In this document: piece by piece, positions 8,488 to 60,795 of the stretch
Position numbering within the stretch: the first letter of the stretch is position 1
Layout of the letters: every line of letters starts with the position of its first letter
The notes under the pieces: generated by a model
What the model was told of the DNA's origin: nothing
The model's database searches: none
What the model saw: only the letters and a program-made list of their open reading frames with translations
Made by a program: the position numbers and the translations under genes
Assembly: GCA_964643685.1 (NCBI GenBank)
Contig: CAZXTN010000003.1
Span: 10,462 to 74,461, forward strand
Reading direction: 5' to 3'
Length of the DNA: 64,000 nucleotides
Source of the DNA: Candidatus Micrarchaeota archaeon
Lineage (GTDB): Archaea > B1Sed10-29 > JAJRYS01

Positions 8488-9735
8488 ATGCAAGTATTAA
8501 AAGAAAACACACAAGGAATTTTTTACGCTTCTTTAATGCTATTTCTTGTATTTGGCTTAACATTCATACTAGTAACTACTTTGAATCCATTTGAAACAAA
8601 TTCATTAAATTTAAAAGCACCAGCACAGCCAGTAATACTCCCCATAGAATCACCAAGCTGCCCTGTTAACTTAACAACAATAACAAGCAAAGACACTGCA
8701 ACTTTAAAATGGAACTTATGCAATGAAACAGATTTTTACAGGCTAAACAAAAGAGTTTTAAACGGCAGTTGGCAATGGGTAAAAGATTATGAAAAAACAA
8801 GAAACAATGCCCTTGTATTAAGACAAGAAGAAGATATGGAATACAGGATCATAGCCTTAATAGGAGAGTCACTGCAATTAAATGGAACAGAAAATAACAC
8901 AATTTTAAACATTTCAAACACGATATTAATCCCAGCTAAAATACAAGAAGAGAGCAATACAAACACAACCCAAGAACAAGACAACTCAACAAGCCCTGAA
9001 AATGAAACAAGTTCAGAGCAGCAATTCACTTGTGCAATAAGCTTAAATTCACTTCAACAAAACAACAGCAGCCAATATACTTTAAAATGGAACTTGTGCA
9101 ATGAAACAGATTTTTACAGGCTAAACAAAAGAGTTTTAAACGGCAGTTGGCAATGGGTAAAAGATTATGAAAAAACAAGAAACAATACAAATGTATCAAT
9201 GGAAGACAAGGAAATAGAATACAGGATAATAGCAGCAAAAGGGCAGTCACTGCAGTTAAACGGAACAGAAAACATTACAATCCTAAACATTTCAAACACA
9301 GTGCTAATCCCTGCATTAATACAACAAGAAGAAAACACTACAAACACAACCCAAGAACAAAACACTACAACAGAAAATCCGCAGAATGAAACAAGCACAA
9401 GCAATACAACAAGCACGCAACAATGCAGCGACTCAGATGCAGGAATAAATAAAAACATTCAAGGAACAGCAACTCTTGGAACCACTTCAAAAACAGACTA
9501 CTGCTCAGGAGGAGGCTTAATAGAATACTACTGCTTAGACAATCAAATAAAATCAGTTTACATTTCATGCGAAGACACATGCCAGAATGGAAAATGCATA
9601 ACAAATACAACTCAAAATATCACCTCAACAGAAGAACCAGAACAAGTTCAACCACAACCAACAGTCAAAACAAACACAAACCCTTCAATAATAGACATTT
9701 TTTCAGCAATAATAAAATACTTTTTCAAAGTATAA
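8488..9735 (+). CDS. Secreted/anchored N-glycosylation-rich protein with an internal duplicated ~95-aa module and Cys-rich C-terminus
   Basis: N-terminal hydrophobic anchor. Two near-identical copies of TLKWNLCNETDFYRLNKRVLNGSWQWVKDYEKTRNN...LQLNGTEN.TILNISNT.LIPA. Dense NxT/NxS sequons, and a C-terminal cluster of 8 Cys. Confidence 0.6.
   Translation: MQVLKENTQGIFYASLMLFLVFGLTFILVTTLNPFETNSLNLKAPAQPVILPIESPSCPVNLTTITSKDTATLKWNLCNETDFYRLNKRVLNGSWQWVKDYEKTRNNALVLRQEEDMEYRIIALIGESLQLNGTENNTILNISNTILIPAKIQEESNTNTTQEQDNSTSPENETSSEQQFTCAISLNSLQQNNSSQYTLKWNLCNETDFYRLNKRVLNGSWQWVKDYEKTRNNTNVSMEDKEIEYRIIAAKGQSLQLNGTENITILNISNTVLIPALIQQEENTTNTTQEQNTTTENPQNETSTSNTTSTQQCSDSDAGINKNIQGTATLGTTSKTDYCSGGGLIEYYCLDNQIKSVYISCEDTCQNGKCITNTTQNITSTEEPEQVQPQPTVKTNTNPSIIDIFSAIIKYFFKV
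8701..9363 (+). repeat. Intragenic duplication: two ~285-bp near-identical copies, starting at 8701 and 9079 (378 bp apart)
   Basis: Direct comparison of 8701..8985 with 9079..9363 shows long identical runs, e.g. ctttaaaatggaactt.tgcaatgaaacagatttttacaggctaaacaaaagagttttaaacggcagttggcaatgggtaaaagattatgaaaaaacaagaaacaat. Confidence 0.85.
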
Positions 9736-12554: not shown

Positions 12555-12639
12555 GCAGGGGTGCCGGAGCCTGGACAACGGGCAGGGTTGAGGGCCCTGT
12601 GACTTAGTGTCCACGCGAGTTCAAATCTCGTCCCCTGCA
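12555..12639 (+). tRNA. tRNA-Leu (anticodon GAG), class II with long variable arm
   Basis: Hand fold: acceptor GCAGGGG/CCCCTGC; anticodon stem CAGGG/CCCTG with loop TTGAGGG (anticodon GAG); 15-nt variable arm; T arm GCGAG-TTCAAAT-CTCGT. 85 nt, CCA not encoded. A GC island in AT-rich DNA. Confidence 0.85.
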
Positions 12640-12851
12640 TCCCAACGGCCGTCCGTTGGATCGACAGGCCATCTTTCGGCTTCGCCTTCGATGACCTCTA
12701 AAAAAAAGAGGGCTCTCATTTTCTTTTTTAAAAAACATAAAGAAGAAGTTATCGAGCAAAGCGAAGATAACTTTAATTTTTCGTCACTTGTCAAAGAGAG
12801 GCTTTTAAAAGCAAAACCCTGCTTAGTAAAAAAACAGAGGTGAGTTAAAAA

Positions 12852-16321: not shown

Positions 16322-16452
16322 AAGACAGCTAAGCGAAGCGCATGCTGTCTACAGGGGAATCAGAAACTCCCTAGAAATCAATCGCCTAAAGACTCAAACG
16401 TTTTTCCTTAACAGGAAAAACTGAGAGGGGCAGCCAGCCCCCTGCGTTTCGG
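16322..16452 (+). repeat. GC-rich structured element, copy A (fills the whole gap between convergent stop codons)
   Basis: Contains the 16-nt core CTAAGCGAAGCGCATG shared with copies at 33867..33882 (reverse complement) and 55929..55944. Hairpins GACAGC-[TAAGCGAAGCGCAT]-GCTGTC and GGGGC-AGCCA-GCCCC show compensatory changes relative to the other copies. Confidence 0.7.
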
Positions 16453-33762: not shown

Positions 33763-33800
33763 AAAAATTAGATTATATATTCTTTCATTCTTCTTTTGAT
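33763..33800. repeat. 38-bp perfect direct repeat (left copy) flanking element copy B; duplicates the last 11 codons plus stop of gene 33978..34661
   Basis: aaaaattagattatatattctttcattcttcttttgat is identical at 33973..34010. Confidence 0.9.
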
Positions 33801-33972
33801 CACCGAGCCGCGGGGGACTCACCGCCCCCCTCAACTCTAGGTAACTCCTGCTCCCCCTGCTGACCACATGCGCTTCGCTTAGTGCTCATTTTTAGGGAAT
33901 TCTTGAAAACTTTGAGTTTTCAAGTTTGCGAAGTTATATTTCGCATAATCTGATCTCCCTCCTTAATAATAA
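33801..33972 (-). repeat. GC-rich structured element, copy B (minus orientation), with an extra AT-rich 5' module containing a 10-bp perfect hairpin
   Basis: The reverse complement reads ATGAGCACTAAGCGAAGCGCATGTGGTCAGCAGGGGGAGCAGGAG...GGGGGGCGGTGAGTCCCCCGCGGCTCGGTG, which is 42/42 identical to copy C over its first 42 nt. The extra module contains CTTGAAAACT-caa-AGTTTTCAAG. Confidence 0.8.
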
Positions 33973-34010
33973 AAAAATTAGATTATATATTCTTTCATTC
34001 TTCTTTTGAT
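33973..34010. repeat. 38-bp perfect direct repeat (right copy); overlaps the 3' end of gene 33978..34661
   Basis: Identical to 33763..33800. Confidence 0.9.
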
Positions 34011-34661
34011 TTCGTCAAGAGGAAGAACAGTAGTTACTAATGGAATTTTTTCAACCTCTGAAATCTTAAGAGCAACCTTGTCAACTTCAGAAATGTTATG
34101 AAGCACAACCATGGTAGGCTTCAATTTAGTTACACGGATTGCAATCAAAGGGCTTCTTCCCATTGAAACATTAGTGAAAATCAAAGCCCTTTCAGTAGTG
34201 TTGCCGTAAATTTTAATAAATTCATCAGCAGGCAGTTCAAGAATAGCGCGGATAGAATCAACAATAGTAAAGCCGTAAATTTTGGTTTTTTTCAGAACTG
34301 CTTCGTTTGAAATTATTCTCCCTTCAATTGATTTTACAAAATCCTTTGACTTCATTGACTTGGAAAAATCCTCCACGTCAAAAACTTCACTTGGCTTCTG
34401 CAATTGAAGCTTTTTATAAACCCAGCCTCCTTTCTGCCTGTCAATTTCAATAATGGCATTCACAAACCTTTTAATAATGCTTGCTCCTGGACTCTTTCTC
34501 CTATTCCCTTCATAATCAGAGATAGTTGAAGGAGTTACATTTAAAAAATCAGCTAATTCAGTTTGAGAAATTCCGAAAATTTCACGCCATTTTTTCAAAG
34601 AAGAGCCAGGGTTGTCACTTAAGGTAATTTCCCCTGCAATGTCAAGCAAAATCTTGTCCAT
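33978..34661 (-). CDS. HTH (XRE-type) transcriptional regulator with C-terminal DRTGG-like domain (putative)
   Basis: N-terminal HTH LKKWREIFGISQTELADFLNVTPSTISDYE; the C-terminal ...ALIFTNVSMGRSPLIAIRVTKLKPTMVVLHNISEVDKVALKISEVEKIPLVTT resembles a DRTGG domain. Confidence 0.5.
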   Translation of the reverse strand: MDKILLDIAGEITLSDNPGSSLKKWREIFGISQTELADFLNVTPSTISDYEGNRRKSPGASIIKRFVNAIIEIDRQKGGWVYKKLQLQKPSEVFDVEDFSKSMKSKDFVKSIEGRIISNEAVLKKTKIYGFTIVDSIRAILELPADEFIKIYGNTTERALIFTNVSMGRSPLIAIRVTKLKPTMVVLHNISEVDKVALKISEVEKIPLVTTVLPLDEIKRRMKEYII

Positions 34662-44257: not shown

Positions 44258-44422
44258 ATAATCCTTTTTTTACTTACTTATTTTTTTAAAAGCAAACGTT
44301 TTAATGACTTGTTTTTTTGCCGTTAGGCAAAAAACCTTTTCAAACTTCAAAGAAGTTTGAACTTGGCTATTGAGGCGTAAGCCGAAAATAGCCTTATTGA
44401 TGCAAACTTTTAAAGTTTGCTA

Positions 44423-44534
44423 TGGACTCGGCGGGAGTTGAACCCGCGGCCTCTCCCACGCCAAGGGAGCAATCTGTAGCGAAAACAATCCGTTTGGGGA
44501 AGTGGGTTTGTTTTTACCACTGATCTACGAGCCC
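44423..44534 (-). tRNA. tRNA-Ala (anticodon GGC) carrying a ~38-nt non-canonical intron in the D-arm region
   Basis: Reverse-strand hand fold: acceptor GGGCTCG/CGAGTCC with a G3-U70 wobble (the Ala identity pair); anticodon stem CTCCC/GGGAG, loop TTGGCGT; T arm GCGGG-TTCAACT-CCCGC. Total 112 nt, with the extra sequence between the D-stem strands (GATC ... GATT). CCA not encoded. Confidence 0.7.
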
Positions 44535-53359: not shown

Positions 53360-53606
53360 AAAAACCTTTAAAAACAATTAAAAGCATTAATTGAAAACAG
53401 AAGAGGGTTTTAACGCGACCATGCAACCAAAACAGCCTCTTTCTGAAAAAAACAAATATTGATTAGAGTTGATTATCAAATGGACTTTAAGTTAAAAGAA
53501 AAACGCTGGAACACGGCTTTTCTTTTAAAAAAAGAAAACACCGGGAAAAGAAAACTAACCACATTCGACTACGTCGAAGTGCTTAGAAAAAAAGAGTGGT
53601 GAAGAA

Positions 53607-55916
53607 ATGGACTTTAAGTTAAAAGAAAAACGCTGGAATACTGATATTGAAAACGAGATAAACGAAAAATGGAAGCAGGAAAAATTATACAAATTCAACA
53701 AAAACACAGAAAAAGAGATAATTACAATTGACAACCCACCAGCATACCCAAGCGGACACTGGCACCCCGGCTCAGCAACAGGATACTCATACATAGACAT
53801 GATAGCACGCTACGAAAGAATGAACGGAAAAGAAATCAACTTCCCATACTGCCTTGACAGAAACGGCTTGCCAATTGAAATGGCAGTTGAAAAAAAATAC
53901 AAAAAAAGCGCACACGACTATGACAGGGAAAAATTCCTAAAACTCTGCGAACAAACAATCTCAGAATTCGGAGAAGAAATCAGAACCGGCTACGAAAAAC
54001 TAGGAATATCAGTAGATTACGAAAACTACTACTACACAGACATGGAAGAATACAGAAAACTAACACAAGCAACTTTCATAGAACTATACAAAAAAGGTTT
54101 AATCTATGAAGACGACAGGCCAACAAACTGGTGCACTGGATGCAAAACAACAATAGCAGATTCAGAAATAGAATACAACGAAGGCACAATAAAACTAAAC
54201 AAGTTAAAATTCAAAGTAAAAGAAACAGGAGAAGAAATAGAAATAGCAACAACCCGTCCTGAACTATTATGCGCTTGTGAAACCGTAATATACAATCCAA
54301 AAGATAGCAGGTACAAGCACTTGAACGGAAAACATGCAATCACTCCAATATACGAAAAAGAAGTTTTAATACAACCGCACCCAGCAGCTTCAATGGAATA
54401 CGGCTCAGGCTTAGTAATGATATGCTCATACGGGGACTCAACAGACGTGCAGTTATTCATTGAACTCGGTTTAAAGCCAACAAAGGCAATTGACAAGCAT
54501 AGGAAAATGACAGAAGCAGCTGGAAAATACGCGGGATTAACAGTGCCAGAAGCAAGGGAAAAAATAATCAAAGAACTGGAAGAAACAGGCGTGTTAATAG
54601 GACAAGAAGACACGCCGCACAGGTACCCAATATGCGAAAGATGCCACTCCCCAGTTGAAATCATAGCAATAAAAGAATTCTACTTAAAACAAATAGAGTT
54701 CCTAGACAAAGTAAAAGAGATGGCTGACAAGACAAAATTCTATCCAGCAAAACACAAGCAAATACTCTTCGACTGGATAGACAGCGTGAAAATCGACTGG
54801 CCAATAAGCAGAAGAAGGTACTACGCAACAGAGATACCATTATGGTACTGTGAAAAATGCGGAGAACTCCTCCTCCCAGAACCAGGAGAATATTACCAGC
54901 CATGGAAAAATAACCCGCCTGAAGGAAGCAAGTGTTCAAAATGCGGAGGAACAGAATTCAAAGGAGAAACAAGAGTATTCGACACTTGGATGGACTCCTC
55001 AATATCAAACTTATACGTAAGCGGATACAAAAGAGACGAAGAATTATTTAACAAAACATTTGGAAAAATCATACGCCCACAGGGAAGAGACATTGTAAGA
55101 ACATGGCTCTATTACACAATGCTAAGAAATTACCAGTTGCTTGAACAGCCTGCTTTTGAAAAAGTAATGATACACGGCATGGGCTTAGACGAGCATGGTA
55201 AGAAGATGAGCAAAAGCAAAGGCAACTTTATCTCACCAGAAGAAATGCTTTCAAAATACGGAGCAGACGCTTGGAGATTATGGGCAGCTTCAGAAACAAA
55301 CATGGGAGAAGATTTCAGGATATCAGAAGAAAGAATAAAAGGAGCGTCAAAATTCCTGACAAAACTATGGAACCTAAGCAGGTTCATCTCCACATTTGAA
55401 ATAAAAGAAACAGGAGAATTAAAAAACACGGACCACTGGATACTCGCAGAATTAAACCAATTAATAAAACAAAGTAAAGAAGGATACGAAGAATACAACT
55501 TCTACATCCCAGCTACAAGAATCAAAGAATTTATTTGGAACACTTTCTCATCAAACTATGTTGAAATGGTAAAACCAAGAGCATATGAAGGGGACACAGG
55601 AGCACTATACACCCTGCACACCTGTTTAAAGACAATTTTGAAATTATTAGCTCCAATCACTCCGTTCATAACAGACAAGGTATATAGAGAAGTATATGGA
55701 AAAACAGTACACTTAGAGGCATTCCCAGAGGAGAATGAGAATTGGAACAGCAACTTCAAGGAGTTAACAGAAAAAATAATTGAATTCAATTCAATGGTAT
55801 GGAAGACAAAAAAAGAACAAGGATTATCACTAAACAGCGAAATAGAAGGAATAAAAATACCAAGCGAATTAAAACCATTTGAAGACGACTTAATCAAAAT
55901 GCACAAGTTGAAATAA
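53607..55916 (+). CDS. valS: Class I aminoacyl-tRNA synthetase, ValRS-like (short, 769 aa)
   Basis: The N-terminus resembles archaeal ValRS (IDNPPAYPSGHWHPGS...IDMIARYERMNG...LDRNGLPIEMAVEKK, WCTGCKTTIADSEIEY, KMSKSKGN). The HIGH box is atypical (HWHPGS). Confidence 0.6.
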   Translation: MDFKLKEKRWNTDIENEINEKWKQEKLYKFNKNTEKEIITIDNPPAYPSGHWHPGSATGYSYIDMIARYERMNGKEINFPYCLDRNGLPIEMAVEKKYKKSAHDYDREKFLKLCEQTISEFGEEIRTGYEKLGISVDYENYYYTDMEEYRKLTQATFIELYKKGLIYEDDRPTNWCTGCKTTIADSEIEYNEGTIKLNKLKFKVKETGEEIEIATTRPELLCACETVIYNPKDSRYKHLNGKHAITPIYEKEVLIQPHPAASMEYGSGLVMICSYGDSTDVQLFIELGLKPTKAIDKHRKMTEAAGKYAGLTVPEAREKIIKELEETGVLIGQEDTPHRYPICERCHSPVEIIAIKEFYLKQIEFLDKVKEMADKTKFYPAKHKQILFDWIDSVKIDWPISRRRYYATEIPLWYCEKCGELLLPEPGEYYQPWKNNPPEGSKCSKCGGTEFKGETRVFDTWMDSSISNLYVSGYKRDEELFNKTFGKIIRPQGRDIVRTWLYYTMLRNYQLLEQPAFEKVMIHGMGLDEHGKKMSKSKGNFISPEEMLSKYGADAWRLWAASETNMGEDFRISEERIKGASKFLTKLWNLSRFISTFEIKETGELKNTDHWILAELNQLIKQSKEGYEEYNFYIPATRIKEFIWNTFSSNYVEMVKPRAYEGDTGALYTLHTCLKTILKLLAPITPFITDKVYREVYGKTVHLEAFPEENENWNSNFKELTEKIIEFNSMVWKTKKEQGLSLNSEIEGIKIPSELKPFEDDLIKMHKLK

Positions 55917-56013
55917 AAAAAATGAGCACTAAGCGAAGCGCATGTGGTCAGCAGGGGGATCAGGATATCCCTAAAACTGAGGGGGACGGCAAGTCCCCCG
56001 CGGTTTGGATTGG
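55917..56013 (+). repeat. GC-rich structured element, copy C, inserted directly after the ValRS stop
   Basis: aaaaATGAGCACTAAGCGAAGCGCATGTGGTCAGCAGGGGGATCAGGATATCCCTAAAACTGAGGGGGACGGCAAGTCCCCCGCGGTTTGGATTGG; flanked by 25-bp imperfect direct repeats at 55896..55920 and 56016..56040. Confidence 0.8.
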
Positions 56014-56070
56014 AAAAAATGCACAAGTTAAAATGAAAAAAGTGAAAACCAAAAGTGGTGAATAGATAAA

Positions 56071-60647: not shown

Positions 60648-60795
60648 GCGCAAACTTTTGAAAAGTTTGCATCAAACAAGGCACCTGCACTTCGTTTGGT
60701 GCCTTAGTTCAAAAACCAAAGGTTTTTGAAAATGTTTGCCTCTAACGAGGCAAAAAAAGTAAATTGCAATTCAGTTGCTCAAACATTTTCTTTTT

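What the first reader, a model, noticed from the sequence alone, without database searches (positions are those of the whole stretch)
55896..56040. Family of GC-rich structured elements that sit directly behind stop codons (overview, exemplar copy C)
Three intergenic copies share a 16-nt core, CTAAGCGAAGCGCATG, and the same three-hairpin layout. They are at 16322..16452, 33801..33972 (reverse strand) and 55917..56013.

- H1 closes a conserved 14-nt loop, UAAGCGAAGCGCAU. Its stem is GACAGC/GCUGUC in copy A but UGAGCAC/GUGGUCA in copies B and C.
- H2 is a GGGAU...AUCCC-type hairpin in copy C; H2 is not shared in sequence (GGGAU/AUCCC in C, a different 4-bp GGGA/UCCC stem in A, unresolved in B).
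- H3 is GGGGGAC-GGCAA-GUCCCCC in C, GGGGGGC-GGUGA-GUCCCCC in B and GGGGC-AGCCA-GCCCC in A. The pairing is preserved by compensatory changes.

Such covariation is the signature of a functional RNA rather than a decaying insertion. Every copy lies immediately 3' of a stop codon, in the same orientation as that gene, so it would be transcribed as a 3' trailer. The copies are the only GC islands in this roughly 33% GC window apart from the tRNAs.

I could not match them to tRNA halves, C/D or H/ACA box RNAs, SRP RNA or RNase P RNA. Candidate identities are a mobile, SINE/MITE-like structured RNA (see the flanking duplications), a protein-binding 3'-UTR/terminator module, or a small self-cleaving ribozyme.
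Basis: seen in the sequence. Interest (0 to 1): 0.85.

Follow-up and report, generated by a model that had tools for sequence, protein, structure and literature searches.

The report
Small hairpin insertions duplicating gene ends
The GC-rich hairpin elements behind stop codons are real: a protein-less mobile insertion family private to one uncultured DPANN archaeon, landing with unusually long (30-60 bp) target duplications that rebuild the hit gene's end by an unknown, possibly retroposon-like, mechanism.

Summary
Copies A (16322-16452 +), B (33801-33972 -) and C (55917-56013 +) share CTAAGCGAAGCGCATG exactly and fold alike. Two more copies (D, E) and a short variant (F) lie just outside the window on the same contig.

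No Rfam family, phage, plasmid or public genome or metagenome collection matches the element.

They are insertions. The closest relative (86-88% protein identity) has empty sites at loci A and C. B, C, D and F are flanked by 30-60 nt direct duplications of the target, which regenerate the upstream gene's last codons and stop. That explains "directly behind stop codons" in a genome with almost no spacers.

Duplications start at an AT(C/T)AAA site. Element 5' ends vary, and the 3' end is constant as far as ...GCG(G)TTYGG. There are no terminal inverted repeats. G.U pairs favour the sense strand. No transposase or reverse transcriptase gene was found in 82 kb.

Best reading: a non-autonomous copy-and-paste element primed at a sequence-specific nick, SINE-like. 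The enzyme and the intermediate are unknown.

Unexplained: relic gene-end copies differ from the live copies almost only synonymously (P=6e-8) and always stay in frame.

A ribozyme is not supported, and a host RNA function is untested.

The parts
55917..56013 (+). Copy C (exemplar). Layout: A-run/linker, then H1 55923-55929/55944-55950 with cap 55933-35/55939-41, H2 55955-60/55967-72, H3 outer 55974-79/56001-06 and H3 inner 55981-87/55993-99, then the tail GCGGTTTGG.
   Evidence: (119.8 bits). The site is empty in relative L008, where 19 nt separate the ValRS stop from the IleRS start.
55896..55932 (+). Upstream copy (DR1) of the duplicated target at C. It holds the last codons (KMHKLK), the stop of the valyl-tRNA synthetase gene and the first spacer bases.
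   Evidence: (D17: 37 nt, 84%, spacing 120).
56016..56052 (+). Downstream relic copy (DR2) of the same target. It still reads KMHKLK*, with ttg>tta and taa>tga.
33801..33972 (-). Copy B. Core H1-H2-H3 at 33801-33895, plus an extra 5' module at 33896-33972: an H2-like arm whose loop holds two AT-rich hairpins, then the linker AAAAATGAG.
   Evidence: 108.3 bits.
33973..34010 (-). DR1 of B: the last 10 codons and stop of the HTH-protein gene (33978-34661, minus strand) plus TTTTT. It starts with ATCAAAAG.
   Evidence: D13: 38/38 identical, spacing 210. An independent Logan unitig breaks exactly at its end.
33763..33800 (-). DR2 of B, the relic copy, 100% identical to DR1.
16322..16452 (+). Copy A. 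H1 has the stem GACAGC/GCUGUC. A 44-nt internal insert is shared with copy E. The copy fills the whole spacer between convergent genes and has no flanking duplication.
   Evidence: (90.2 bits). Relative L152 has an unrelated 50-nt AT-rich spacer at this site.
12640..12706 (-). Short related element (F-type) abutting the tRNA-Leu 3' end. It consists of an 8-bp stem with a GGCGAAGCC cap, then the hairpin CCAACGGACGGCCGUUGG.
   Evidence: (matches to the F and F3 copies).
53512..53604 (.). Insertion G: 93 nt and hairpin-rich, with an H1-like stem CTAAGCAC/GTGGTTAG on the minus strand. It sits inside the first 11 codons of ValRS and is flanked by 34-nt perfect repeats (53478-53511 and 53605-53638). 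It supplies a new GGTGA ribosome-binding site.
   Evidence: The site is empty in L008.

Best explanation
A, B and C belong to a lineage-specific family of small (about 90-170 nt), protein-less, hairpin-rich mobile insertions in an uncultured DPANN (Nanoarchaeota-like) archaeon.

**Shown**
- The copies are insertions relative to the closest relative.
- They arrive with a very long, variable-length (30-60 bp) duplication of the target.
- The duplication begins at an AT(C/T)AAA-type site.
- Element 5' ends vary: extra modules in B and D, and H1 missing in E.
- Sequence is constant on the 3' side only as far as ...GCG(G)TTYGG, after which 0-11 non-conserved nt follow.
- There are no terminal inverted repeats.
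- The hairpins are kept by compensatory changes, and the folding strand is the one co-oriented with the upstream gene.

**Inferred: why they sit behind stop codons.** The genome has almost no spacers. Only insertions whose duplication regenerates a gene end (3' or 5') survive, and those are the ones seen directly behind stop codons.

**Inferred mechanism (about 0.3 on its own)**
- The element spreads by copy-and-paste from a single-stranded copy. This is probably RNA made by read-through from the upstream gene.
- Copying is primed at a sequence-specific first nick, leaving a bottom-strand ...TTTGAT-3'OH.
- A loosely placed second nick lies 30-60 nt away, and the 5' end is joined by microhomology.
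- This is a SINE-like, target-primed process served in trans by an enzyme not encoded in the 82 kb examined.

The confidence of 0.55 is for the whole statement. 'Mobile insertion family with long target duplications' alone is about 0.85.
For: **Empty sites in the closest relative**
- C.
- A.
- G.

**Distribution**
- The family is absent from about 28 kb of the closest relative and about 44 kb of 70%-identity relatives.
- There are 5 copies in 82 kb here.

**Flanking direct repeats**
- B: 38/38 nt.
- C: 30-37 nt.
- D: about 60 nt, including the tRNA-Ile 3' end.
- F: 52-56 nt, inside an HhH-GPD gene.
- G: 34/34 nt.

**Target and ends**
- AT[CT]AAA lies within -3..0 of the left repeat boundary in B, C, G and the ScpB event. 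The background window probability is 0.0087, giving P about 2e-7, with the motif defined post hoc.
- E equals A minus H1, at 94% over 100 nt. B carries an extra module.
- Microhomology at C's 5' junction: target AAAAAGTGA against element AAAAATGAG.

**Structure and strand**
- Covariation.
- G.U 18 against A.C 5 in paired cells, and two G.U pairs invariant in all 5 copies.
- Independent short-read unitigs break at the repeat boundaries.

**Negatives**
- No Rfam family.
- No phage or plasmid match.
Against: - No reverse transcriptase, transposase, integrase or Cas1 gene was found among the called genes of the 82 kb or in rescans of unannotated ORFs.
- No poly(A) or other simple 3' tail is present.
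- 0-11 non-conserved nucleotides separate the conserved 3' end from the downstream repeat.
- A and E replaced sequence rather than duplicating it.
- Very small unrelated fillers (25-27 nt) sit between similar long repeats. The duplication process may therefore be a general break-repair or replication phenomenon, with the GC-rich element only one frequent filler.
- The GCGAAGC cap is far more stable in DNA than in RNA (PMC13037366), which favours a single-stranded DNA form.
- Terminator-like hairpin + T-run sites lie on the antisense strand only.
- Only 5 full or partial copies were available. The rest of the genome could not be searched.
Confidence: 0.55

Rival explanations
1. By-product of break repair or replication template switching. 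A general process in this lineage duplicates 30-60 nt and fills the gap with sequence copied from elsewhere (MMBIR/FoSTeS-like). The GC-rich hairpin element is just a favoured template, for example because it is often single-stranded, and not a transposon with machinery of its own.
For: - Similar long repeats flank unrelated tiny fillers. One is a 27-nt AT hairpin at the relative's ScpB end. Another is 25 nt at a metallopeptidase gene start.
- The boundaries of the inserted segment vary at both ends.
- Microhomology is seen at junctions.
- No mobility gene was found.
Against: - The left boundary shows a sequence preference, AT[CT]AAA. That points to a specific nick rather than random fork collapse.
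- The same roughly 95-nt core was copied at least 5 times in 82 kb with its hairpins kept by compensatory changes.
- The 3' side of the core is always complete while the 5' side is truncated.
Confidence: 0.15
2. REP/PATE-like single-stranded-DNA hairpin element, mobilised by an HUH (IS200/IS605 TnpA or RAYT-type) enzyme encoded elsewhere. The hairpins would be protein-recognition sites in ssDNA.
For: - The apex is the GCGAAGC DNA mini-hairpin.
- The H1 stem carries a conserved central mismatch (G.G in B, C and F).
- On the bottom strand the element lies directly 3' of TTGAT in B, which resembles an IS200/IS605-type target.
- A bacterial (Kiritimatiellae) repeated hairpin has the same 16-nt cap.
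- DNA folding z = -4.45.
- IS200/IS605 is the commonest archaeal IS family (PMC13343696).
Against: - From established knowledge of IS608/ISDra2 and REPs, HUH peel-and-paste insertion makes no target duplication and has precise ends. Here there are 30-60 nt duplications and variable ends.
- G.U pairs outnumber A.C pairs 18:5, which fits RNA better.
- No Y1 transposase was found in 82 kb.
Confidence: 0.12
3. Host-useful cis-acting RNA or DNA module: an mRNA 3' stabiliser, a protein-binding 3'-UTR, or a terminator/insulator against antisense or convergent transcription. Its spread is tolerated or favoured by selection. This is compatible with a mobile origin.
For: - All six A-F copies are co-oriented with the gene upstream.
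- The hairpins are stable, with covariation.
- On the antisense strand both H3 and H1 are followed by T-runs. Copy A separates convergent genes.
Against: - The closest relative does without the element at the same genes.
- H2 is broken in B and D without compensation.
- No T-run follows the hairpins on the sense strand.
- F truncates and rewrites a protein C-terminus.
- Related insertions G and F2 are probably antisense to their neighbours.
Confidence: 0.12
4. Homing cassette. The element plus the downstream gene-end copy spreads between strains by recombination or by cleavage of un-inserted alleles. The synonymous differences between the two gene-end copies would be donor/recipient allelic differences, or recoding that protects the filled allele, as in intron-less homing of endonuclease genes. 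The structured RNA could even be a guide scaffold.
For: - 14 of 18 differences between the two gene-end copies are synonymous or stop-preserving, against a neutral expectation of 18% (P=6e-8).
- At ScpB all 8 differences are derived in the relic copy.
- The structured element is followed directly by 30-60 nt identical to the target.
Against: - No nuclease gene is nearby.
- The same family sits at many unrelated targets, so each target copy must be created de novo.
- B and G have perfectly identical repeats.
- Ordinary inter-strain recombination could give the same allelic pattern.
Confidence: 0.05
5. Small self-cleaving ribozyme, or another known structured RNA class.
For: The only support is the compact multi-hairpin fold, with a possible pairing between the H1 cap and the 3' tail in copy A.
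Against: - No match to any of 4227 Rfam families, including all known ribozyme classes, even at E<=10.
- The cap-tail pairing is not kept in B or C.
- H2 is dispensable.
Confidence: 0.01

Closest known systems
SINEs / non-LTR retroposons moved by target-primed reverse transcription (eukaryotic L1-Alu type)
   Same: - Non-coding and structured.
- The 3' side of the core is always present (up to ...GCG(G)TTYGG), while the 5' end is variable or truncated.
- Target duplications are variable in length and long.
- There is a sequence preference at the boundary next to the element's 3' end (L1: TT/AAAA; here A/ATCAAA).
- Microhomology occurs at the 5' junction.
- Some insertions come with target replacement instead of duplication.
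   Different: - No A-tail or simple-repeat tail.
- No tRNA, 7SL or 5S head.
- No partner RT/endonuclease is known.
- Duplications of 30-60 bp are longer than is typical.
- To my knowledge such elements have not been described in archaea or bacteria.
Bacterial REP/BIME and IS200/IS605-derived palindrome-associated elements (PATEs), mobilised by HUH Y1 transposases or RAYTs
   Same: - Short GC-rich imperfect hairpins with conserved mismatches.
- Located at gene 3' ends.
- No terminal inverted repeats.
- Strand-specific.
- The cap is a DNA mini-hairpin motif.
   Different: Those elements insert without target duplication and with exact ends. Here there are 30-60 bp duplications and ragged ends.
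Prokaryotic MITEs (e.g. Correia/NEMIS, RUP, Sulfolobus SM elements)
   Same: Small, non-autonomous, multi-copy, intergenic and foldable. Insertion polymorphism between related genomes.
   Different: MITEs have terminal inverted repeats and a short target duplication (2-10 bp) of fixed length set by a DDE transposase. Neither is seen here.
IS30-family IS1630 of Mycoplasma (recalled from memory: Calcutt et al. 1999), and Cas1/casposase integration
   Same: Unusually long target duplications. For IS1630 these are 19-26 bp of variable length at terminator-like sites. For CRISPR repeats they are about 28-37 bp. Casposons give 13-15 bp (PMC8464041).
   Different: Those enzymes duplicate a defined palindrome or use a ruler of fixed length, and they need defined element ends. 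Here the length varies two-fold and the targets are not palindromic.
GC-rich mobile hairpin clusters of AT-rich organelle genomes (yeast mitochondrial GC clusters, Allomyces double-hairpin elements, Magnusiomyces 'byps') and in-frame Rickettsia palindromic elements
   Same: - GC-rich hairpin modules scattered through an AT-rich, compact genome.
- Some lie inside coding regions.
- No coding capacity, and the mechanism is unknown.
- A curious frame-preserving pattern.
   Different: Those elements make 0-3 bp duplications, and are either translated (RPE) or bypassed (byps). Here in-frame stops separate the gene from the relic copy.

Membership tests
Any Rfam family (including hammerhead, twister, pistol, hatchet, HDV-like, SRP, RNase P, C/D sRNA, Hgc RNAs) | Covariance-model score at or above the family's gathering threshold. 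| tested here: not met
   The window at gathering thresholds gives only a tRNA at 44423-44534. Copy C at E<=10 gives only noise, with the best hit at 14.7 bits against a 67.7-bit threshold.
MITE (DDE-transposase derived) | Terminal inverted repeats at both element ends. | tested here: not met
   Only copy A shows a 13/16 inverted match between the H1 cap and its 3' tail. B and C have none within 3 mismatches. The ends of the inserted segments differ between copies.
MITE (DDE-transposase derived) | Short target-site duplication (2-10 bp) of fixed length. | tested here: not met
   Duplications are 30-37 nt (C), 38 (B), about 60 (D), 52-56 (F) and 34 (G), and none for A and E.
REP / IS200-IS605 PATE (HUH-mobilised) | Insertion without target duplication, 3' of a fixed tetra- or pentanucleotide, with exact ends. 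| tested here: not met
   Long duplications and variable ends are seen. TTGAT abuts the bottom-strand end only in B. In C the junction is 3 nt off, and in D it is GAGAT.
REP / IS200-IS605 PATE (HUH-mobilised) | A cognate Y1/RAYT transposase gene in the genome. | not testable with these tools
   None is present in the 82 kb reachable. The rest of the genome could not be fetched.
SINE-like retroposon (target-primed reverse transcription) | Variable-length target duplications, a 3' side that is always present, and 5' truncation. | tested here: met
   Duplications span 30-60 nt. All copies keep H3 and GCG(G)TTYGG. E lacks H1, and B and D carry extra 5' sequence.
SINE-like retroposon (target-primed reverse transcription) | A sequence-specific first-nick site at the boundary next to the element's 3' end. 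| tested here: inconclusive
   AT[CT]AAA lies at -3..0 in 4 of 7-8 independent events, P about 2e-7. However, the motif was defined after seeing the data, and the number of events is small.
SINE-like retroposon (target-primed reverse transcription) | A partner reverse transcriptase/endonuclease and an RNA intermediate. | not testable with these tools
   No RVT-family hit in 82 kb. No transcript data are available.
Integron attC site | R''(RYYYAAC)...R'(GTTRRRY) core sites bracketing an imperfect palindrome at a cassette's 3' end. | tested here: not met
   GTTRRRY is present by eye only in D (GTTAAGT) and at A's native flank, and is absent in B, C and E. There is no RYYYAAC at the 5' ends. The upstream genes are housekeeping genes (ValRS, ScpB, tRNA-Ile), not cassettes.
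Diversity-generating retroelement (TR/VR pair) | Differences between the two repeats confined to adenines of the template repeat, with an RT gene adjacent. | tested here: not met
   The differences are C/T, A/G and G/T at third codon positions in both directions. No RT gene is adjacent.
Casposon / Cas1-type integration | Ruler-defined duplication of fixed length (13-15 bp for casposons; repeat length for CRISPR) and defined ends. | tested here: not met
   The duplication length varies two-fold. For the casposon values see PMC8464041.
Archaeal bulge-helix-bulge intron | Exon-intron junctions that pair into a BHB motif. | tested here: not met
   The junction sequences are direct repeats, not complementary. 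Folds of the C and B regions show no pairing between junctions. The window's one intron-containing tRNA has an unrelated intron.

The most novel reading that the evidence does not exclude
This may be the first SINE-like retroposon family in an archaeon. A structured RNA, transcribed as a read-through trailer, would be copied into new sites by target-primed synthesis. A specific nick at A/ATCAAA and a loose second nick would give the 30-60 bp duplications.

The relic gene-end copies stay in frame and diverge only synonymously. This hints that the filled and empty alleles keep exchanging, or that the relic is still read.
Probability: 0.2. Interest if true: 0.88.

Novelty: new variant of a known kind. 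Interest (0 to 1): 0.7.

Why it matters
**For mobile-DNA biology.** Prokaryotic transposable elements are thought to be DNA transposons with short, fixed target duplications, or group II introns, which make none. A non-coding family that inserts with 30-60 bp duplications, ragged 5' ends and a nick-site preference fits none of the prokaryotic classes I compared it with. If it is RNA-mediated, retroposition of a eukaryotic style would extend to archaea.

**For genome evolution.** It shows how an ultra-compact symbiont genome can tolerate insertions. The duplication itself repairs the gene that was hit, at either the 3' or the 5' end.

**For annotation.** These elements create spurious small ORFs in public annotation. 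Examples are the 47-aa and 40-aa 'genes' flanking ValRS. They also create relic gene ends and altered protein C-termini, as in the HhH-GPD glycosylase.

**For testing.** The synonymous-only divergence and the frame preservation of the relic copies are an open puzzle. It can be tested directly with population reads.

Tried and rejected
**Public collection scans for the core**
- I scanned genome contigs and metagenome contigs for TAAGCGAAGCGCATG N4-12 CAGGG. Apart from a Kiritimatiellae hairpin that shares H1 alone, there were only chance hits in GC-rich bacteria.
- I scanned viral contigs for the 14-mer cap and for the H2 pattern. All hits were chance matches.

**Looking for more copies through proteins**
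- I searched the protein database with the 47-aa ORF that public gene callers place on copy C. It found only itself.
- Walking along the contig is limited to 10 kb beyond the window, because only window-encoded proteins may be looked up.
- One look-up (P0123) was not on record.

**Other sequence searches**
- BLAST of B against phages and plasmids found nothing.

**Identities considered and rejected**
- tRNA-like, SRP, RNase P, C/D box, and a k-turn by eye: no Rfam support.
- Group II intron domain V: the wrong length, with a G.G where the AGC triad should pair, and no Rfam hit.
- Integron attC, DGR, casposon and BHB intron: see the membership tests.
- Tandem duplication: the sequence after DR2 does not repeat the insert.
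- Assembly artefact: the repeats are shorter than k=141 and are embedded in unique context, and independent assemblies and unitigs agree.

**Attempts to explain the in-frame spacing**
- Stop-codon read-through: 1 to more than 6 in-frame stops intervene.
- Ribosome hopping or splicing: neither needs a multiple of 3.
- A 30-bp histone periodicity: fits only 3 of 6 events.

**Literature**
- Searches for a described DPANN or archaeal equivalent found none.


Full report
**1. What is there**

The core CTAAGCGAAGCGCATG occurs exactly at 16329 (+), 33867-33882 (-) and 55929 (+). Counting up to 3 mismatches, 0.29 matches are expected by chance.

The three regions align over about 100 nt. A has a 44-nt internal insert and B has an extra module of about 80 nt on its 5' side. 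A covariance model of the three finds them at 90-120 bits and nothing else above 15 bits in the window, with filters off.

Copy C folds as three hairpins:
- H1: 55923-29/55944-50.
- H2: 55955-60/55967-72.
- H3: a 7-bp inner helix and a 6-bp outer helix, 55974-56006.

The fold statistics are z = -3.7 as RNA and z = -4.5 as DNA.

The H1 "loop" is not open. It holds GCG-AAG-CGC, which is the GCGAAGC mini-hairpin motif. That motif is extraordinarily stable in DNA and much less so in RNA (PMC13037366).

The window is 35.8% GC.

**2. Whose genome**

The window is identical, apart from 2 mismatches in 20 kb, to ENA metagenome contig ERZ27248007:k141_357708, which is 123 kb long.

Conserved proteins place it among uncultured DPANN archaea:
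- MAT is 73-75% identical to 'Candidatus Nanoarchaeia' sequences.
- ValRS is about 59% identical to Aenigmarchaeota sequences.

Gene spacing is extremely tight.

**3. More copies**

Fetching 10 kb beyond each window end gave 82 kb of contig. The model then found three more elements.
- D is at L146 4259-4360 (-), 90 bits, with an A-type H1. It lies behind tRNA-Ile(GAU) in the same orientation.
- E is at L146 3524-3639 (+). It lies behind the ScpB stop. It is A-like, 94% identical over 100 nt and shares the 44-nt insert, but it lacks H1.
- F is at L145 15962-16007 (-). It is a short variant, made of an H1-like hairpin capped by GCGAAGC plus the hairpin CCAACGGCUGGCCGUUGG.

F-type relatives lie next to tRNA-Leu (window 12640-12706) and about 600 nt left of the window. 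GCGAAGC occurs 13 times against 5 expected, and 7 of those are at element apices.

On five copies, 84.8% of cells pair and 9 pairs changed on both sides. 0/500 shuffles reach the covariation score, and slid controls give at most 56% paired.

G.U pairs outnumber A.C pairs 18 to 5, and two G.U pairs are invariant. The folded strand is therefore the one co-oriented with the upstream gene.

**4. They are insertions**

The closest relative, S, comes from JGI 3300011013 and ENA ERZ27251151. Its ValRS is 86% identical and its MAT 88%.
- At locus C, S has 19 nt between the ValRS stop and the IleRS start, against 154 nt here.
- At locus A, S has an unrelated 50-nt AT-rich spacer between the same convergent genes.
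- The model finds no family member in about 28 kb of S or about 44 kb of 70%-identity relatives.
- Unitigs from an independent run break exactly at the end of B's upstream repeat and inside A's H1, as expected for repeated sequence.

**5. Long target duplications**

| Event | Repeat length | Spacing (nt) | Target |
|---|---|---|---|
| B | 38/38 nt | 210 | HTH-protein gene end |
| C | 30-37 nt at 84-90% | 120 | ValRS end |
| D | about 60 nt | 176 | last 16-18 nt of tRNA-Ile plus downstream spacer |
| F | 52-56 nt | 102 | inside the 3' end of an HhH-GPD glycosylase gene |

In F the protein now ends ...PKRGLSEANAV* instead of ...PKKGVEKK*.

In B and C the upstream repeat copy holds the gene's last codons and its stop. 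The gene stays intact, and the element appears "immediately behind the stop codon".

The same architecture occurs at gene starts.
- G is a 93-nt hairpin-rich insertion between 34-nt perfect repeats of the first 11 ValRS codons (53478-53638). It brings a new GGTGA ribosome-binding site, and the site is empty in S.
- H is a 25-nt filler between 31-nt repeats at a metallopeptidase gene start.

A and E have no duplication of their own; they replaced sequence. At ScpB, S carries a 57-nt perfect repeat around a 27-nt AT hairpin. It has the same repeat start and the same AAAGTTCA tail as in this genome. That duplication is therefore ancestral, and E came later.

**6. Anatomy of the junctions**

In the element's orientation, the left boundary of the duplication carries AT(C/T)AAA within 3 nt in B, C, G and the ScpB event. 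D has ATCTCC and H has ATGAAA. The background probability per boundary is 0.0087, giving P about 2e-7. The motif was defined post hoc.

The right boundary is variable, which gives the 30-60 nt range.

On the 3' side, every copy keeps H3 and ...GCG(G)TTYGG, followed by 0-11 odd nucleotides. On the 5' side the copies begin at different points.

At C's 5' junction the target (AAAAAGTGA) and the element linker (AAAAATGAG) are nearly identical, which is microhomology.

There are no terminal inverted repeats in B or C.

The linker AAAA(A/C)TGAG precedes both H1 and H3. On the antisense strand each hairpin is therefore followed by a T-run, and the terminator scan fires only there.

**7. What it is not**

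- No Rfam family matches, even at E<=10.
- No phage or plasmid match.
- No viral-contig relative.
- Public genome and metagenome scans returned only chance matches, apart from a Kiritimatiellae repeated hairpin sharing the cap and stem architecture of H1 alone.
- No RT, transposase, integrase or Cas1 appears among the genes of the 82 kb.

**8. Mechanism**

*Shown:*
- lineage-specific insertions;
- long duplications of variable length;
- a boundary motif;
- a 3' side that is always complete, and variable 5' ends;
- hairpins maintained by compensatory change;
- sense-strand polarity.

*Inferred:* survival only where the duplication rebuilds a gene end. This is selection in a spacer-poor genome.

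*Most likely process:* copy-and-paste from a single-stranded copy, primed at a specific nick, with a loosely positioned second nick and a microhomology-joined 5' end. This is the logic of target-primed retroposition (SINE-like). I put about 0.3 on that specific version and about 0.85 on "mobile insertion family with long target duplications".

*Main rivals:*
- a general duplication-plus-filler repair process, for which the element is a favoured template (supported by the tiny unrelated fillers);
- a REP-like ssDNA element moved by an HUH enzyme (supported by the DNA mini-hairpin cap, contradicted by the duplications);
- a host-useful 3' module (not excluded, but dispensable in the sister genome).

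**9. Two unexplained regularities**

First, the relic gene-end copy differs from the live copy the way orthologous alleles do. 14 of 18 differences are synonymous or stop-preserving, against 18% expected (P = 6e-8). At ScpB all eight differences are derived in the relic copy.

The simplest account is exchange with diverged strains, with one crossover at the element. That amounts to homing-like or Campbell-type transfer of element plus one repeat. It was not tested.

Second, in all six events at protein-gene 3' ends the repeat spacing is a multiple of 3:
- 84 nt in S;
- 102, 120, 150, 207 and 210 nt here.

An in-frame 9-nt deletion in one relic copy fits the same rule. The three other events (56, 127 and 176 nt) are not multiples of 3. 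In-frame stops lie between the copies, so simple read-through does not explain the pattern.

**10. Verdict**

The mobile-element reading is supported. The "functional RNA" inference and the ribozyme idea are not established.

To my knowledge, and from the literature searches made here, this combination has not been described for a prokaryotic element. The combination is:
- non-coding;
- no inverted repeats;
- 30-60 bp duplications of variable length;
- a nick-site preference.

Noticed in passing
window 53478-53638: A 93-nt hairpin-rich insertion (G) sits inside the first 11 codons of the valyl-tRNA synthetase gene, between 34-nt perfect direct repeats. The upstream repeat now starts a spurious 40-aa ORF that is called in public annotation. 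The insertion supplies a new GGTGA ribosome-binding site for the real start at 53607. The site is empty in relative L008.
   Followed up: yes
window 12640-12706 (minus strand), next to tRNA-Leu 12555-12639: A short GC-rich two-hairpin element of the F type (GGCGAAGCC-capped stem plus CCAACGGACGGCCGUUGG) abuts the tRNA 3' end in the opposite orientation. Relatives lie at L145 15962-16007 and at about 600 nt left of the window.
   Followed up: partly
window 60650-60760 and 44385-44422: A second family of AT-rich hairpins, GCAAACTTT(T)nAAAAGTTTGCATCAA..AAGG, follows both the thermosome gene stop and the intron-containing tRNA. Further hairpins follow the thermosome gene. These may be terminators or another small repeat family.
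   Followed up: no
window 44423-44534 (minus strand): A tRNA gene with a 41-nt intron at a non-canonical position, in the D-loop region. Rfam found it (50.5 bits) but ARAGORN missed it. The intron is unrelated to the elements.
   Followed up: partly
window 8701-9364: A near-perfect 378-nt tandem duplication (108 nt at 99%, then 55 and 41 nt at 87-90%) lies inside a 415-aa ORF that has no Pfam family.
   Followed up: no
L146 3735-3821 (about 5.8 kb right of the window end): 31-nt direct repeats of a metallopeptidase gene start flank a 25-nt filler that carries AGGAGAGG. The copies differ by ATG/GTG, two synonymous changes and one Leu/Pro change.
   Followed up: partly
L008 13573-13713 (sister genome): At the ScpB 3' end, a 57-nt perfect direct repeat flanks a 27-nt AT-rich hairpin. 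It has the same repeat start and the same AAAGTTCA tail as this genome's E locus. The repeats are identical although the event appears to predate the split of the two genomes, which points to concerted evolution or recurrence.
   Followed up: partly
L003 7089-7126, L144 540-577, L133 (minus) about 2338-2375; L141 (minus) about 300-440: The identical cap CTAAGCGAAGCGCATG sits inside a perfect 9-10 bp hairpin followed by CAGGGAT, in a repeated element of a Kiritimatiellae MAG. It also occurs in tandem units of an unidentified 38%-GC contig. Only H1 is shared. Whether this is convergence on the mini-hairpin or a distant relationship is unknown.
   Followed up: partly
window 55922-56065 and 53480-53602: Public gene calls place 47-aa and 40-aa 'proteins' on element C and on insertion G. 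The 47-aa sequence has no relative among 5.8 billion proteins.
   Followed up: yes
window 55922-55934 versus L146 3491-3503: The 5' strand of H1 in copies B and C (ATGAGCACTAAG) equals the native ScpB gene end (ATGAGCACTAAAG). B's 5' extension also begins like the ScpB stop plus the start of element E. This may be flank sequence carried along from a source copy at the ScpB locus.
   Followed up: partly
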